Shown here: positions 54,539-59,455 of the stretch, piece after piece
Numbering within the stretch: the first letter of the stretch is position 1
Layout of the letters: each line of letters opens with the position of its first letter
Assembly (NCBI GenBank): GCA_019058315.1
Contig: JAHPZH010000002.1
Span: forward strand, 640,001-704,000
DNA length: 64,000 bases
Direction of reading: 5' to 3'
DNA from: Candidatus Helarchaeota archaeon
Lineage (GTDB): Archaea; Asgardarchaeota; Lokiarchaeia; Helarchaeales; RDOG01
Made by a program: the position numbers and the translations under genes
Notes under the pieces: generated by a model
What the model was told of the DNA's origin: nothing
The model's database searches: none
What the model saw: only the letters and a program-made list of their open reading frames with translations

Positions 54539-56338
54539 CTAGAATTTATATTTTTTGATTTTATTTTGAAGAAAAAGAGTTGTTGCTTTTAATGGATTTA
54601 CATGCAGGAAACGGGGTGGATAAATGCGAATTTCACAAGAATTTCTGGTGGGTAAATTTCCAGGACAATAAACTATTGCGTTTCCTACCTTCAATGTAAA
54701 AAGATCTTTTTTTAGCGTTGTAGGTATACTGACCGTGTCAATATCTGCTTTAGACCCTCGAAATAAAACTAACGAGTTTGATTGTTCGACCACGTTGGGA
54801 TTTAATTTTCTGAGACTTTGAGATGCAGATATCAATGAAACCATGTATTTGCGTCCTTCTGTTGCTAAAATTGTAAATTCTTCATTAATATATTTTCCAA
54901 AAATGTTCAAATACCCGCTTGCCCCATATTTATATGGAATTAATTCATGAGCTTCATCTATGATTACTACACTCTGCTTTTTTAAAAAATCTTCAAGCTT
55001 ATCCTTATTTGCAGCTTGTGTCTTATAATGTATGATTTTTGAGATTAAGGAGAACAATAAAATTGTTCGCAATTGTTCATATCCCCGTATTCGAGGCAAG
55101 TAGAAAAACACAATCTTTTTGTTTAAAATCTCTCTAATATTTGGTTCGCTCACCATGTCGAATATTTGAGCTGCTTGAAAATTTGATAATTCTCTAATTA
55201 GATTTTGTGCCGTGGGCTTGCTTGATTTTATTTCGTATGAACTATTTGAATTGAAAGTCCAAATAACTTGATTCTTATCCTCTTCATTACTTTCCTTGAT
55301 CCACTTGTAAAAATTTTCGAAGTTGAATTCGCTATTTATTTCCATATAGACTTTAAAAAGATTCTTAAGAACGTCTTGAGCTTTATTCGTGAGATTTGGT
55401 AAATAAATGCAGAGCTCTTCGCCTGTTTTGATATTTTTCGAATCTTTACCATAATCTTCCCACGGAAAAATCTTTAAAAAACCTTCAACATTAATAAAAA
55501 AGGGCTTGTAAAAACTCATGTCCCGAATCATGAGAATATCATCTAAACCCTCAAATTTTAAATTTAAATCTTGTAAAAGGAGTTTTGTGCTGGGATCGCT
55601 GTATTCTTCCGGCATCGCTTTCATTATTTGACAGAGATCACCTTGAGTATCGATTACTATTAGATTAGTATCCTCCTTTATGAGTTCTAGAATAATATTT
55701 TTTAATAAAATGCTCTTTCCTTGCCCTGTCATACCCCCAATAGCAAGGTGTTTTGAGATAAAAGATCTATTGAGTATATATTTAACTGGAATATCTTGGA
55801 TTCTCATAATGTCGTCTTTATCACATATTATTCCAAGTGAAATACCCTCAGATGGTGTGGGTAGCCCATTAATTTCAAGAATTTCTTCTGTTAATGCTTG
55901 AAATACTGGTGATCCAGGTGTCGGAAGGATTTTAATACGACGGAAATCTCGGAGCGAAACCCCATGCGAGTTCAGAAGGCGTACTTTGAGTAGTGCAGTC
56001 CCTTCCTTATAATCCGATTTGGTCATGATATAATCCTCTACTATACCAGAAAGAATCTCATTCCCTCCTTCTTCGTATACCAAGATATACTGTTCTAATT
56101 GTGGAAGATAATCTTCATTTTCTCTAGAAATAGCCACGTAAATGTTCTCAAAACCCTTAATTGGTGCTGTAACTGCACCCACTGGAGTCCGACCCTCAAA
56201 ACGCTCCGATTTCGTGGTAAATTTCTTCTTATCCACCCACATCTTTAACTTTTTCAATGCAATGTTCATATAATCTATGATCTCAGCATTATCATGATCT
56301 TCCAAATCAAAAACCTCTTTTTTAAATAGAAAATCCAC
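54539..56338 (-). CDS. HerA/FtsK-superfamily (DUF87) ATPase
   Basis: KHLAIGGMTGQGKS Walker A, VIDTQGD, VIIDEAHE Walker B, EGRKY arginine finger and ASQ; HAS-barrel-like N-terminus. Confidence 0.88.
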   Translation of the reverse strand: MDFLFKKEVFDLEDHDNAEIIDYMNIALKKLKMWVDKKKFTTKSERFEGRTPVGAVTAPIKGFENIYVAISRENEDYLPQLEQYILVYEEGGNEILSGIVEDYIMTKSDYKEGTALLKVRLLNSHGVSLRDFRRIKILPTPGSPVFQALTEEILEINGLPTPSEGISLGIICDKDDIMRIQDIPVKYILNRSFISKHLAIGGMTGQGKSILLKNIILELIKEDTNLIVIDTQGDLCQIMKAMPEEYSDPSTKLLLQDLNLKFEGLDDILMIRDMSFYKPFFINVEGFLKIFPWEDYGKDSKNIKTGEELCIYLPNLTNKAQDVLKNLFKVYMEINSEFNFENFYKWIKESNEEDKNQVIWTFNSNSSYEIKSSKPTAQNLIRELSNFQAAQIFDMVSEPNIREILNKKIVFFYLPRIRGYEQLRTILLFSLISKIIHYKTQAANKDKLEDFLKKQSVVIIDEAHELIPYKYGASGYLNIFGKYINEEFTILATEGRKYMVSLISASQSLRKLNPNVVEQSNSLVLFRGSKADIDTVSIPTTLKKDLFTLKVGNAIVYCPGNLPTRNSCEIRIYPPRFLHVNPLKATTLFLQNKIKKYKF

Positions 56339-56464
56339 ATATTTTGATGTTATTATTCTGGCAAATCTTGAAATTTTCTCAATTAATAAAATTGATTTAG
56401 ATAAAAAAATTAAAAGTATTAATTCTTATTTCGTATTAATTAAAAAACTACTAATGGTTGTTTT

Positions 56465-57289
56465 ATGCCTACAAAAAATATTGATATTTCTTATGAAAAT
56501 AAAGAGGACCAAATAATTTTGGGAAGTCTCCACACAATTTCTACGTTTTTATGTGCAAAGGGAAGTTTTAACCATAAACCTGCTCTTAAAAAAGTAGATC
56601 CCTCCATAGATTTTGATAAATTTGAAGTTTTAATTAAAAAAATCGAAAGAAGTATGATTGGATTTCGTAGAGGAATATTACCTATAGAGTTGAATTATAA
56701 GGATGAGAAGCAAAGAGAAACATTAAAACCTGTAATTAAAGAGATAGCAAAATTTATGGATAAAATTGTAAAATCTGGTCAGAAGGCATTTTTCAAAGAA
56801 GTTGATCGGATTTATGAACATATTATATGCTCTGTTCCCAATGCTATAGAGTATCTAGCGTTGGACCAAGAATTAGATAATCCAGAGGAAGTATATATTG
56901 TAAATATGGGTGATTTAGGTGTTTCTGGTCAATATGATTACCTTTATTCATTGTTAAGTCATTTACCACAATTTCCAAATTTACAAGCTATATTTCTCTA
57001 TGGTTGCTATTTGCGAAATTATGATATCCAAAATATCGAATTCAGCAAATTTCAGGACTTGCGATTATTAGATTTTTCTCAATGTTCTCTTGACTATATT
57101 CCAAAATCAATTTTAAAATGTAAGAAATTAGAAGATCTTAGTTTCTATGAAAACAAATTAAATACCCTTCCCGACGAATTAGGTGAATTAAAAACTTTAA
57201 AAAAATTAAATATTAAGATAAACTCGATTCCTAATCAAAAAATTCAAGAAATTCAAGCGAAGTTACCAAAATGTATTATTTCTTATTGA
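56465..57289 (+). CDS. Protein with C-terminal leucine-rich repeats
   Basis: LRLLDFSQCSLDYIPKSI, LEDLSFYENKLNTLPDELGEL and cap IQAKLPKCIISY. Confidence 0.8.
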   Translation: MPTKNIDISYENKEDQIILGSLHTISTFLCAKGSFNHKPALKKVDPSIDFDKFEVLIKKIERSMIGFRRGILPIELNYKDEKQRETLKPVIKEIAKFMDKIVKSGQKAFFKEVDRIYEHIICSVPNAIEYLALDQELDNPEEVYIVNMGDLGVSGQYDYLYSLLSHLPQFPNLQAIFLYGCYLRNYDIQNIEFSKFQDLRLLDFSQCSLDYIPKSILKCKKLEDLSFYENKLNTLPDELGELKTLKKLNIKINSIPNQKIQEIQAKLPKCIISY

Positions 57290-57386
57290 TTTTTATTAAT
57301 ATAACTAATTTTTGAATAAATCAATTTTTTGAAAAAAAATTAAAATTAAATTATAAGTAAAAAATACTTTTTGATGCCAATAACTT

Positions 57387-58118
57387 TCAAGTTCTAAGCA
57401 TCCTGCCACAATATTCACATTGACATGGTGGTTTTTTTGGTAATGGTGCTTTACAAGCAGGACAGATCGAAATTTTAGGTCTTGATTTATATTTTTTCTT
57501 CCTTTTAAATTGATAACTTCTATAATTAGTATATACTGGTGAATGTGATTTAAAAGTTTGTTTTACTTTAAAAGTAATTATTAAGATGGCAAAGATTAAA
57601 ACGATACCAACAATAATTCCAATTAAAATAAACCTATTTTGTTTACGAGTAATAGAATCATCAAACAATTCTGGAAATAAAATAAACGGTAGTAATAAAT
57701 TGAACAATCTGGGGCTATTTACATGTCCCGAAATCGCTCTCCCTATGGTAGAAGTTGTCCCAAACTCAACAGGTTTGTCATTAACAAGAGCCCACACATC
57801 CAAATAACCAGCAGCTGTCATTGTAAAAGATAAATCACATGTTAATGCATCACCTTTAAAGTTTCGACTCCCAGTTCCGCTTCCAGAAAATCCTTCTATA
57901 GTGCAACTTCCACTCCAAGCAGTATTTGAATTGATAAAAACTATATAATCTGATTTTGCAAGATCTACACAAAATTGCATTGCCAAAAGTTTTAAAATAT
58001 CACTATCTTTTATCTCTGGATAATTTTGAACTGATATACTAATAATACTTACTGTTGAAACACTAATTATTGCTATTATCCCCAACGTTATATATTTCGA
58101 CCTTTTATTCATTAACAA
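57387..58118 (-). CDS. Membrane protein with a small extracellular domain and a C-terminal zinc finger
   Basis: N-terminal and internal TM segments; CPAC...CEYCG at the C-terminus. Confidence 0.68.
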   Translation of the reverse strand: MLMNKRSKYITLGIIAIISVSTVSIISISVQNYPEIKDSDILKLLAMQFCVDLAKSDYIVFINSNTAWSGSCTIEGFSGSGTGSRNFKGDALTCDLSFTMTAAGYLDVWALVNDKPVEFGTTSTIGRAISGHVNSPRLFNLLLPFILFPELFDDSITRKQNRFILIGIIVGIVLIFAILIITFKVKQTFKSHSPVYTNYRSYQFKRKKKYKSRPKISICPACKAPLPKKPPCQCEYCGRMLRT

Positions 58119-58373: not shown

Positions 58374-58628
58374 ACAAATTTAGCGTGATGAATTTGATCC
58401 CGTTGGGCTCGCCCATAGTCCTGAAATGGAAAAGCGAACAAGTGAGCCTTAATCATGATCATTAAGCTTTTTATCAATTAATTTTTAATCTTTAAAGCAT
58501 CCCAACAGCCTCAGTGTACCGGACTCGAACCGGTTGACCTAACAAGGGTTCCGGGTGTGCCTTTCAATTCCAAGATCCACGGTTTAATCTTCATTACTCA
58601 TAATAACTTGCTTATAAGCCAAATCTGC
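58374..58628 (-). ncRNA. Candidate 255-nt structured RNA with a tRNA-like T-arm, immediately 3' of the DIP1984-family gene
   Basis: Terminal 11-bp helix GCAGAUUUGGC/GCUAAAUUUGU; nested helices GAUCUUG/CGGGAUC, GUUGGG/CCCAAC and GCUCACUUGU/AUGGGCGAGC; perfect T-arm ACCGG-UUCGAGU-CCGGU at 58518-58534; GC-rich relative to flanks. Confidence 0.7.
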
Positions 58629-59090
58629 TTATTTTTCCAATAATTCAGTTTCCCAATTTCTAGATTGAAGAATTTTATCGAGGTCTGCTTTCTTTTTTTC
58701 CATTTGGGCAATTAATTTAGCAATTTCATCTTGTTTTATTTGTGGGATGTATTCTACAGCTTGACCACCAAGATATACAGGACCTTTAGGTTTTAATGTT
58801 TCATATTGTGATAATTCCGACCGTAAATCTCCGATCATCAATATTAATTCCATTAATGAAATTTCCTTACCATCAACTTGAAGCTTAATGTTTGTATTCG
58901 TTCTATTTATCCTCACTTTAATGTCTCTTATTTCATCAATGAGATCATTAATCTCCTTGTTTACTTTATCAAATACGACATCAATGGTTTTATTCTCTAA
59001 TACATTAAATGTATCATATCTTAATCTATTTAATCGATTGAGTTTGCTTTGCATGATTTTTAACTCTTGTAGTGCTGCACCTAGCAACAT
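58629..59090 (-). CDS. DIP1984 (DUF6847/septicolysin-like) family helical protein
   Basis: MLLGAAL...RINRTN...ISLMELI...LDKILQSRNWETELLE pattern. AAGGAG Shine-Dalgarno sequence supports the ATG at 59090 rather than 59129. Confidence 0.78.
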   Translation of the reverse strand: MLLGAALQELKIMQSKLNRLNRLRYDTFNVLENKTIDVVFDKVNKEINDLIDEIRDIKVRINRTNTNIKLQVDGKEISLMELILMIGDLRSELSQYETLKPKGPVYLGGQAVEYIPQIKQDEIAKLIAQMEKKKADLDKILQSRNWETELLEK

Positions 59091-59455
59091 TTGATCCAAC
59101 TCCTTAAATCTTTCAATTTCGTAATTCATAAATTTAGTATATTGATAATCAAGGGTTATTTATAAATCTGTAGATTTTAATAGAAAGCTAATTTATTTGA
59201 ATCAAATGATATCATTAATTTGGTTCGTTAAATGAAAAATTGAACAATATATCGTCAATATCGGACATTTTAGTCTTCATCAATAATTAAAAATTATATT
59301 TTATCAGTATAAAATGTTTAAAAAGAATTTTCTTTTGAATTAAAAAATTATAAAGAATAAAAGAATTATAATATATAATATATTAATTGATTTTTTTTTA
59401 ATTATTAATTTTAAAATTTTTAATAATATTACAAATAATGTAGGAGGTAAAAACA

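What the first reader, a model, noticed from the sequence alone, without database searches (positions are those of the whole stretch)
58374..59090. DIP1984-family gene followed directly by a 255-nt structured RNA with a tRNA T-arm: candidate protein-ncRNA system
Seen: on the minus strand the first 11 nt after the TAA stop (GCAGAUUUGGC, 58628-58618) pair with GCUAAAUUUGU (58384-58374), closing a 255-nt domain. Inside are adjacent nested helices (GAUCUUG/CGGGAUC, GUUGGG/CCCAAC), a long hairpin GCUCACUUGU/AUGGGCGAGC and a CUUAAU/AUUAAG hairpin. There is also an A/U-rich loop closed by GCUUU/AAAGC and a textbook T-arm ACCGG-UUCGAGU-CCGGU (58534-58518). No acceptor stem or anticodon arm completes a tRNA. 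The G-U pairs work only on the coding strand, and the segment is clearly GC-richer than the flanking intergenic DNA. Established: DIP1984-family proteins are poorly characterised helical proteins, and partial tRNA mimicry is used by bacterial Y RNAs (YrlA) and tmRNA. Inference: gene and RNA form a two-component module, such as a ribonucleoprotein, a toxin with an RNA antitoxin, or a tRNA-mimic stress/defence element. I do not know of a described RNA family for it.
Basis: partly seen in the sequence, partly recalled or inferred. Interest (0 to 1): 0.9.

Follow-up and report, generated by a model that had tools for sequence, protein, structure and literature searches.

The report
Splice-motif-flanked folded RNA behind DUF6847 gene
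Right behind a small gene of unknown function, this Asgard archaeon encodes a conserved, uncatalogued folded RNA of about 190 bases whose base has the exact shape cut by the archaeal tRNA-splicing enzyme, so it is probably cut out of the messenger (perhaps as a circle) to partner the protein.

Summary
The structured RNA is real. A covariance model built here finds a full-length copy (81-198 bits) directly 3' of every close DUF6847/DIP1984 ortholog with enough flank (24 loci, 25 copies). Among 151 Lokiarchaeia genomes it hits only the six that carry the gene with flank. Covariation is strong: 86-88% of cells pair, against 33-55% in slid controls.

The comparative fold has four features:
- a base that is a canonical archaeal bulge-helix-bulge motif (3-nt bulge, 4-bp helix, 3-nt bulge), strict in 21 of 25 copies;
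- a long covarying stem;
- a T-loop hairpin in 19 of 25 copies;
- about eight tandem 7-nt units (YAnnGnU; lag-7 z = 21).

EndA and RtcB are encoded in the genome. My best reading (about 0.55) is that the RNA is co-transcribed with the mRNA, excised at 58584|58583 and 58394|58393, probably circularised into a roughly 190-nt RNA, and bound by the protein through the heptads. No RNA data were available, so processing is inferred.

There is no Rfam match and no paper. This scan has noted DIP1984-gene/RNA pairs before on other DNA (115 notes, 84 genomes). The splice motif is the new element here.

The parts
58629..59090 (-). DUF6847/DIP1984-family gene (153 aa; stop TAA at 58631-58629). The open frame runs up to 59129, but the likely start is the ATG at 59090.
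   Evidence: Pfam PF20935 scores 40.2 bits against a cut-off of 27. NCBIfam NF038048 scores 51.2, below its cut-off of 70. All orthologs start at MLLGAALQELK. The AF2 model has pLDDT 93 and matches 3KDQ at TM 0.81.
58385..58597 (-). The conserved structured RNA (type 1), from the outer stem P1a 5' strand to the P1a 3' strand.
   Evidence: Model R1 scores 143.6 bits, E 4e-32, over 58381-58601. Covariation is shown.
58590..58597 (-). P1a 5' strand (GUAAUGAA), the outer helix of the bulge-helix-bulge motif. It pairs with 58385-58392.
   Evidence: All 9 pairs of this helix show changes on both sides across homologs.
58586..58589 (-). Central 4-bp helix of the motif, 5' strand (GAUU). It pairs with GAUC at 58396-58399.
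   Evidence: 99% of cells pair across 25 copies, and the helix is exactly 4 bp in all of them.
58583..58585 (-). 5' three-nucleotide bulge (AAA). The predicted 5' cut lies between 58584 and 58583.
   Evidence: The bulge is 3 nt in all 25 copies, with no gaps. The geometry matches this genome's own tRNA-Met intron. The cut position follows the canonical rule and is inferred.
58393..58395 (-). 3' three-nucleotide bulge (AAA). The predicted 3' cut lies between 58394 and 58393.
   Evidence: The cut position is inferred.
58396..58399 (-). Central 4-bp helix of the motif, 3' strand (GAUC).
58385..58392 (-). P1a 3' strand (UUCAUCAC).
58394..58583 (-). Predicted excised (possibly circular) RNA of 190 nt.
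   Evidence: Inferred from the motif. The predicted size is 176-208 nt across the 25 copies.
58579..58582 (-). P1c 5' strand (CCGU), the inner helix of the motif. It pairs with ACGG at 58400-58403.
   Evidence: 91% of cells pair.
58559..58577 (-). P2 long stem, 5' strand. It pairs with 58417-58435. The core CUUGGAAUUGAAAGGC (58574-58559) pairs with GCUUUUCCAUUUCAGG (58435-58420).
   Evidence: All 19 pairs of this helix show changes on both sides. Compensatory changes against the closest relative L074 are read.
58417..58435 (-). P2 long stem, 3' strand.
58518..58534 (-). P4 T-loop hairpin (ACCGG-UUCGAGU-CCGGU).
   Evidence: The stem covaries. The T-loop consensus G[GA]YUCRANNC[CU] sits at this place in 19 of 25 copies.
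58441..58501 (-). Array of about eight tandem 7-nt units (consensus YAnnGnU; GAUUAAA-like).
   Evidence: The self-match at lag 7 is 0.52 against 0.28 expected (z 21); lag 14 gives z 16 and lag 21 gives z 12. The register is shown. Helices drawn inside the array show no double-sided changes.
58404..58415 (-). P6 short hairpin (UGGG-CGAG-CCCA) just before P1c'.
   Evidence: 92% of cells pair, and 2 of 3 pairs show double changes.
58618..58628 (-). It is specific to this genome and may extend the processing stem.
   Evidence: It is present in the MFE fold. It is not seen in the closest relative L074.

Best explanation
The segment is a member of an uncatalogued family of structured RNAs that is always encoded immediately 3' of a DUF6847/DIP1984 gene.

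In this Lokiarchaeia/Helarchaeales subgroup the RNA is most likely co-transcribed with the mRNA, because in several loci it starts 0-2 nt after the stop codon.

Its base forms a canonical archaeal helix-bulge-helix-bulge-helix motif. The tRNA-splicing endonuclease EndA should therefore cut in both 3-nt bulges, at 58584|58583 and 58394|58393. RtcB should then join the ends. That would release a roughly 190-nt RNA, probably circular, and leave the mRNA with a short 3' hairpin.

The released RNA would carry a long stem, a T-loop hairpin and about eight 7-nt repeats. I take the repeats to be the docking sites of the DUF6847 protein, which is modelled as a dimer. The product would be a ribonucleoprotein of unknown cellular role.

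Shown here: the RNA family, its linkage to the gene, its fold, the motif geometry and the heptads. Inferred: co-transcription, cleavage, circularisation and protein binding.
For: Linkage:
- Model R1 gives full-length hits directly downstream of the gene in all 24 loci with flank (25 copies, 81-198 bits).
- Among 151 genomes of the class it hits only the six that carry the close ortholog with flank.
- Neighbouring genes differ between loci.

Fold:
- On the model-fitted alignment 88.0% of cells pair, against 33-53% in slid controls, and 37 of 51 pairs show double changes.
- On the MAFFT-only alignment 85.6% pair, against 34-55% in slid controls.

Motif:
- The central helix is exactly 4 bp and 99% paired, and both bulges are exactly 3 nt in 25 of 25 copies.
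- 21 of 25 copies meet the strict hBHBh' definition.
- The strand geometry is identical to this genome's own tRNA-Met(CAT) intron.
- EndA (two genes) and RtcB are present in the genome.
- Established knowledge is that EndA recognises the shape and not the sequence, and that BHB cleavage followed by ligation yields circular RNAs in archaea (PMC12558985).

Co-transcription: the gap from stop codon to RNA is 0-2 nt in L054, L061, L085 and L086.

Heptads:
- In type 1 the lag-7 self-match gives z 21.
- Heptad arrays are also seen behind distant DUF6847 genes.

Protein:
- It has the DIP1984 fold.
- Homodimer model: score 0.82, best of 3 controls 0.00. That mark was reached by 20 of 30 proteins solved as pairs of one chain and by 1 of 23 solved as single chains. 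The runs agree in 100% of their contacts and the partner's pLDDT is 93. A solved relative with four chains (3KDQ) exists, so this pass may come from memory.
Against: - There are no transcript data: neither a cut, nor a junction, nor even transcription past the stop codon has been observed.
- Other Asgard DUF6847 RNAs lack the 3-4-3 base (type 2, L095), and so do distant loci (L099, L100). The motif is therefore not needed by the family as a whole.
- The central helix is A/U-rich and thermodynamically marginal. RNAfold opens it in several mini-constructs.
- L058 has a second RNA copy preceded by a T-run and a TATA-like box, so independent transcription is possible.
- Binding of the protein to the heptads has not been tested at all.
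Confidence: 0.55

Rival explanations
1. The structure is a cis-acting 3'UTR element. It stays on the mRNA and controls its stability, 3'-end formation or translation, and is not excised.
For: The RNA abuts the stop codon, with gaps of 0-13 nt in most loci. A T-run follows it in most loci. No separate promoter is evident.
Against: About 200 nt of covarying multi-helix structure, a T-loop and eight heptads are far more than a stabiliser needs. The 3-4-3 geometry is invariant, and EndA is known to cut that shape in any context. L058 carries a second copy 88 nt after the first, beyond a T8 run.
Confidence: 0.15
2. The 3-4-3 base is a protein-binding platform (for DUF6847, L7Ae or another protein) and not an EndA substrate. 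The RNA is a linear trans-acting partner whose ends are made in some other way.
For: Other DUF6847-associated RNAs lack the motif yet keep the heptads. The bulges are A-rich and sequence-biased.
Against: The central helix covaries as Watson-Crick pairs (position 16-250 is UG, CG or UA), not as the sheared G-A pairs of a kink-turn. The geometry equals the genome's own tRNA intron. A stable BHB in an archaeal cell would be expected to be cleaved unless it is masked.
Confidence: 0.15
3. The pair is a type III-like toxin-antitoxin or defence module. The repeat-bearing RNA would neutralise or sense through a harmful DUF6847 protein.
For: The pair has a patchy distribution: 12 of 161 class genomes and 6 of 400 phylum genomes by Pfam. 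Its genomic context varies. In this window a HerA-like ATPase with defence-model hits lies nearby. A repeat-bearing RNA next to a small protein recalls ToxI/ToxN.
Against: The protein matches no nuclease or toxin family and gives only weak coiled-coil hits in PADLOC. The repeats are 7 nt and embedded in a larger fold, not about 36-nt units upstream of the gene. No toxicity data exist.
Confidence: 0.1
4. The segment is a decayed tRNA gene, a split tRNA half or an integration scar that kept a T-arm.
For: The T-arm sequence is perfect. tRNA genes with introns are common in this genome.
Against: ARAGORN and RF00005 find no tRNA here. The genome holds a single copy. The whole roughly 200-nt fold is conserved and covaries in 25 copies, while the T-loop itself is dispensable in 6 of them.
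Confidence: 0.01

Closest known systems
Archaeal bulge-helix-bulge introns and BHB-derived circular RNAs (tRNA introns, including the tRNA-Trp intron that is a C/D box sRNA; 16S/23S processing stems; the Cbf5 pre-mRNA intron of Crenarchaeota)
   Same: The motif is a 3-nt bulge, 4-bp helix and 3-nt bulge flanked by helices, with the same strand geometry as this genome's tRNA-Met intron. EndA and RtcB are present. The excised part would itself be a functional folded RNA, as with the tRNA-Trp intron sRNA.
   Different: The host is the 3'UTR of a protein-coding mRNA, not a tRNA, rRNA or coding sequence. The excised RNA belongs to no known class. Excision has not been observed.
Ro60/Rsr with bacterial Y RNAs (YrlA type)
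   Same: A small structured RNA is encoded next to its presumed protein partner. It has a long stem made by its 5' and 3' parts and a T-arm-like hairpin.
   Different: No Rfam Y-RNA match was found. The partner is a DIP1984-fold helical protein, not a TROVE ring. A heptad array and a BHB base are absent from Y RNAs.
TnpB/IscB with omega RNA
   Same: A structured RNA is encoded directly at the 3' end of the gene of the protein it is thought to bind. Circular isoforms are reported in archaea (PMC12558985).
   Different: There is no nuclease domain, transposon end or guide segment. Those circular omega RNAs lack a BHB motif.
Repeat-motif RNAs that bind oligomeric proteins (TRAP with 11 GAG/UAG repeats; CsrA with CsrB/RsmZ)
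   Same: It carries a row of evenly spaced short units, here eight units of 7 nt. That suggests one protomer or dimer per unit.
   Different: The period and the motif differ. The array is embedded in a closed fold. The partner fold is unrelated. Binding is untested.
DIP1984/DUF6847 family (PDB 3KDQ, Corynebacterium diphtheriae)
   Same: The protein has the same fold (TM 0.81) and matches Pfam above its cut-off.
   Different: No function and no RNA partner is described for the family in the papers searched.

Membership tests
tRNA (Rfam RF00005) | Cloverleaf with acceptor, D, anticodon and T arms | tested here: not met
   ARAGORN finds none in the window. cmscan at E<=10 matches only the T-arm, as a tmRNA fragment of 8.1 bits. 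RF00005 run on the whole genome gives 44 hits, none of them here.
Archaeal BHB (hBHBh') splice substrate | Two 3-nt bulges on opposite strands, each 3' of its strand of a 4-bp central helix | tested here: met
   All 25 copies have 3-nt bulges and a 4-bp helix that is 99% paired. The geometry is the same as in the genome's tRNA-Met intron.
Archaeal BHB (hBHBh') splice substrate | Flanking helices of at least 2 bp on both sides | tested here: met
   21 of 25 copies meet the strict definition. Four have one mismatch next to a bulge or in the central helix.
Archaeal BHB (hBHBh') splice substrate | Splicing endonuclease and RNA ligase encoded by the organism | tested here: met
   PF01974 matches at C12:5422-5676 and C1:331438-331698. 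RtcB matches at C5:272272-273576.
Archaeal BHB (hBHBh') splice substrate | Observed cleavage in the bulges and ligated (circular or exon-exon) junctions | not testable with these tools
   No RNA holder was listed for this stretch.
DIP1984 / DUF6847 protein family | Profile match above the curated cut-off | tested here: met
   Pfam PF20935 scores 40.2 bits against a cut-off of 27. NCBIfam NF038048 scores 51.2, below its cut-off of 70, so this is a divergent member.
DIP1984 / DUF6847 protein family | Fold of the solved member 3KDQ | tested here: met
   The AF2 model has pLDDT 93.2. Foldseek against 3kdq_A gives E 1.6e-6 and TM 0.81.
Bacterial Y RNA (YrlA) / Ro60 system | Match to the Y-RNA covariance models; neighbouring Ro60 (TROVE) gene | tested here: not met
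   No Rfam match in the window or in 16 related loci. The neighbouring gene is DUF6847, not TROVE. The genome was not searched for a TROVE gene.
Type III toxin-antitoxin (ToxIN-like) | Tandem repeats of about 36 nt upstream of an endoribonuclease toxin gene | tested here: not met
   The repeats are 7 nt and lie downstream of the gene inside a larger fold. The protein has no nuclease family hit.
Any Rfam 15 family | Score at or above the gathering threshold | tested here: not met
   There were 0 matches in the window. In 16 related loci the only matches were two unrelated tRNAs.

The most novel reading that the evidence does not exclude
An Asgard mRNA hosts, in its 3'UTR, an intron-like element that the tRNA-splicing machinery releases as a stable circular RNA. 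That circle carries eight heptad repeats and a tRNA-elbow-like T-loop, and it nucleates an oligomer of the protein encoded by the same mRNA. It would be the archaeal form of a cross-domain, undescribed DIP1984-RNA particle, and a prokaryotic parallel to eukaryotic intron-hosted non-coding RNAs.
Probability: 0.35. Interest if true: 0.9.

Novelty: categorically new. Interest (0 to 1): 0.8.

Why it matters
If this holds, it adds a new structured RNA family and a new protein-RNA pair to archaea. The pair has relatives behind DUF6847 genes elsewhere.

It would also show that the BHB splicing machinery is used to make a dedicated non-coding RNA from the 3'UTR of a protein-coding transcript. BHB processing is known for tRNA, rRNA and a very few mRNAs. 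An mRNA-hosted, excised functional RNA in the closest prokaryotic relatives of eukaryotes bears on how intron-hosted RNAs and circular RNAs arose.

The heptad array gives a concrete, testable handle on the function of a domain of unknown function. That domain has had a crystal structure since 2009 and no assigned role.

Processing, circularity and protein binding are all inferred, so the weight of this rests on the experiments listed under decisive next steps.

Tried and rejected
- BLASTN of the RNA against 60 relatives gave only chance hits to the A/U-rich part. The family was found only through the neighbouring protein.
- Sequencing runs: no RNA holder was listed for this stretch, so expression and junctions could not be examined and read laying was not used.
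- The genome-contig scan returned only loci already in hand.
- The viral-contig scan with the protein alignment found no relative.
- The conserved 16-mer GAGGCTTTATAGATTA hit two viral contigs. Model R1 finds no RNA in either, and the one inspected (L102) lies inside a coding region.
- tblastn of a distant family member (P0152) against plasmids and phages gave no match. The bacterial and phage spread reported in earlier scan notes was therefore not verified with named records.
- I looked for a BHB in the type-2 Asgard RNAs, in L095 (another Asgard class) and in L099/L100, and found none.
- A kink-turn or C/D-box reading of the base was considered and rejected, because the central helix covaries as Watson-Crick pairs.
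- TATA-like boxes between the stop codon and the RNA in this window and in L074 are placed so that transcription would start inside P1a. I did not accept them as RNA promoters.
- The sigma-70 promoter and terminator scan is uninformative for an archaeon.
- Helices inside the heptad array (GAGGCUUUA/UAAAGCUCA and an inner 4-bp helix) show no double-sided changes. They may be by-products of the palindromic AGCU in the repeats.

Full report
**What is at the locus**

The window is G000:C5:640001-704000 of a 5.8-Mb archaeal assembly with about 30% G+C. Records of related loci name Helarchaeota and Promethearchaeota/Lokiarchaeota MAGs.

On the minus strand, ORF 58629..59129 matches Pfam DUF6847 (40.2 bits, cut-off 27). 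It also matches NCBIfam DIP1984_fam, but below that cut-off (51.2 against 70).

An AlphaFold model (pLDDT 93.2) matches only the functionally unknown C. diphtheriae protein 3KDQ (TM 0.81).

The 250 nt after the stop codon are richer in G+C than the flanking intergenic DNA (0.36-0.50 against 0.18-0.24). They fold better on the minus strand (z -2.07) than on the plus strand (z +0.84).

ARAGORN, Rfam at gathering thresholds, Rfam at E<=10 and RF00005 run on the whole genome find no tRNA and no known RNA family here.

**Is the RNA real?**

BLASTN found no relatives, so I went through the protein.

- Close orthologs (60-85% identity) occur in a minority of Lokiarchaeia genomes: 12 of 161 genomes hold any relative. 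They also occur in many metagenome contigs.
- Every one with downstream sequence shows a conserved segment right after the stop codon.
- A covariance model built from 18 MAFFT-aligned copies (A4, R1) finds a full-length match of 81-198 bits downstream of the gene. It does so on the same strand in all 24 loci with flank, giving 25 copies.
- In 151 genomes of the class it hits only the six that carry the close ortholog with flank, once each. A seventh ortholog (G160) ends at a contig edge.
- Flanking genes differ from locus to locus. Gene plus RNA is therefore a self-contained module.

**The fold**

On the model-fitted alignment A6, 88.0% of cells form standard pairs, against 33-53% when partners are slid by 1-3 columns. 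37 of 51 pairs show changes on both sides, and no shuffle in 500 reaches the observed values.

The MAFFT-only alignment A4, which was not fitted to any structure, gives 85.6% against 34-55%, with 36 of 59 pairs showing double changes.

Only its T-arm holds (82%); its other five helices pair in 42-67%.

In the closest relative (L074), the 16-bp core of my stem P2 (58574-58559 with 58435-58420) keeps pairing through seven changes. These include G-C to A-U, and repair of the single U-C mismatch of this window (read).

**The base is a bulge-helix-bulge motif**

Read from outside to inside, the base consists of:

- helix P1a (58597-58590 / 58392-58385);
- a 3-nt bulge on the 3' strand (58395-58393);
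- a 4-bp helix (GAUU 58589-58586 / GAUC 58399-58396);
- a 3-nt bulge on the 5' strand (58585-58583);
- helix P1c (58582-58579 / 58403-58400).

In all 25 copies both bulges are exactly 3 nt and the central helix is exactly 4 bp (99% paired). The central helix also covaries: GAAU/GUUC, GAAU/AUUC, GAAC/GUUC, GAGC/GUUC, AAAC/GUUU and GAUU/GAUC. 21 of 25 copies meet a strict hBHBh' definition.

I checked the handedness against this genome's own tRNA-Met(CAT) intron. There the order is anticodon stem, CUCA, bulge UA|A on the 5' strand, and UGAG, bulge AU|A, stem on the 3' strand. That is the same arrangement.

The genome encodes two EndA-family genes and RtcB. Established knowledge is that EndA recognises this shape whatever the sequence context. 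Cleavage plus ligation gives circular tRNA introns and circular pre-rRNAs in archaea (PMC12558985).

By the canonical rule the cuts fall after the second bulge nucleotide, at 58584|58583 and 58394|58393. That would release 190 nt here and 176-208 nt in the family.

The RNA starts 0-2 nt after the stop codon in four loci, and most loci end in a T-run. Co-transcription with the mRNA is therefore the simplest reading.

None of this processing has been observed. No RNA run was listed for the stretch.

**Inside the RNA**

- *T-loop.* Hairpin P4 carries a T-loop consensus in 19 of 25 copies, including this window (58534-58518). It is absent from the closest relative L074 and from the Hel_GB_A group. 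Similarity to tRNA therefore stops at one motif.
The self-match is 0.52 at lag 7 against 0.28 in shuffles (z 21), with z 16 at lag 14 and z 12 at lag 21.
- *No support for helices in the array.* Helices that RNAalifold draws inside the array show no double-sided changes. They may simply reflect the palindromic AGCU within the units.
- *Heptads elsewhere.* Such arrays also lie behind distant DUF6847 genes: Asgard type 2, L095 from another Asgard class, and L100. L099 is borderline.

**Variants**

- *Type 2.* A second RNA type sits behind 26-35% identical paralogs (L050, L051, L068-L072, L042). It has a 5' hairpin, a continuous base helix with one U-U mismatch, a T-loop-like hairpin and heptads, but no 3-4-3 motif.
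- *Other loci.* L095, L099 and L100 also lack the motif. The splice motif is therefore a feature of the type-1 lineage and not of the whole family.
- *Tandem copies.* L058 carries two tandem type-1 copies.

**Protein**

A homodimer model scored 0.82, with the best of 3 controls at 0.00. That mark was reached by 20 of 30 proteins solved as pairs of one chain and by 1 of 23 solved as single chains. The runs agree in 100% of contacts and the partner's pLDDT is 93.

A solved relative with four chains exists (3KDQ), so the pass may reflect memory. It says nothing about RNA binding.

**Reading and odds**

| Claim | Odds |
|---|---|
| Real RNA family, obligately linked to the gene | about 0.97 |
| Base is an EndA substrate and the RNA is excised | about 0.65 |
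| Product is a stable circle | about 0.5 |
| Heptads bind the DUF6847 protein | about 0.5 |
| Composite best explanation | about 0.55 |

The rivals are a non-excised 3'UTR element, a protein-binding base with linear RNA, and a toxin-antitoxin or defence role. A tRNA remnant is excluded in practice.

**Known or new?**

Rfam 15 has no match. Full-text searches for DUF6847, DIP1984, 3KDQ, PF20935 and septicolysin found no paper linking the family to an RNA. A search on BHB or circular RNA in Asgard archaea found nothing on this element.

This scan itself has noted DIP1984-gene/RNA pairs before on other DNA: 115 notes in 84 genomes. One note reports evenly spaced 7-base units. It led me to test periodicity here, and the test was positive. 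Another reports head-to-tail joined RNA in a phage version, which I could not test.

The bulge-helix-bulge base is what this report adds, with its implication that the tRNA-splicing machinery makes the RNA from the mRNA.

Noticed in passing
L058:1671-1883 and L058:1972-2184: One metagenome contig carries two tandem, diverged copies of the type-1 RNA behind a single DUF6847 gene. Copy 1 is followed by T8. Copy 2 is preceded by a TATA-like TTTAAATTTTAT, so the RNA may also be transcribed on its own.
   Followed up: partly
L070:1067-1139 and L051:1378-1450: In two type-2 loci a tRNA gene (61.6 and 54.8 bits) lies directly upstream of the DUF6847 paralog.
   Followed up: no
window 54539-58118: The neighbours of the module are three genes. 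They are a HerA-like ATPase (54539..56338, minus strand) with PADLOC mad8/HerA hits, a leucine-rich-repeat protein (56465..57289, plus strand), and a membrane protein with a Cys-rich C-terminus (57387..58118, minus strand). Together they may form a defence or variable island.
   Followed up: no
G000:C3:627500-631800 (outside the window): About 20 tRNA genes lie in one row, many with introns. ARAGORN and RF00005 together detect only 42-44 tRNAs genome-wide. Several RF00005 matches cover only model positions 8-63, which suggests tRNAs with unusual introns.
   Followed up: no
window 59091-59129: The open frame extends 13 codons upstream of the conserved start. AAGGAG lies 8 nt before the ATG at 59090 and a TTTATAAATAA box lies near 59160. 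The shorter gene model is therefore more likely.
   Followed up: partly
L095:1942-2110: An Asgard genome of another class has a DUF6847 gene followed by a divergent RNA. The RNA gives a partial R1 match (23.5 bits, model positions 75-160) and carries CUCAAGG/AUGAAAG heptads, but it has no 3-4-3 base.
   Followed up: partly
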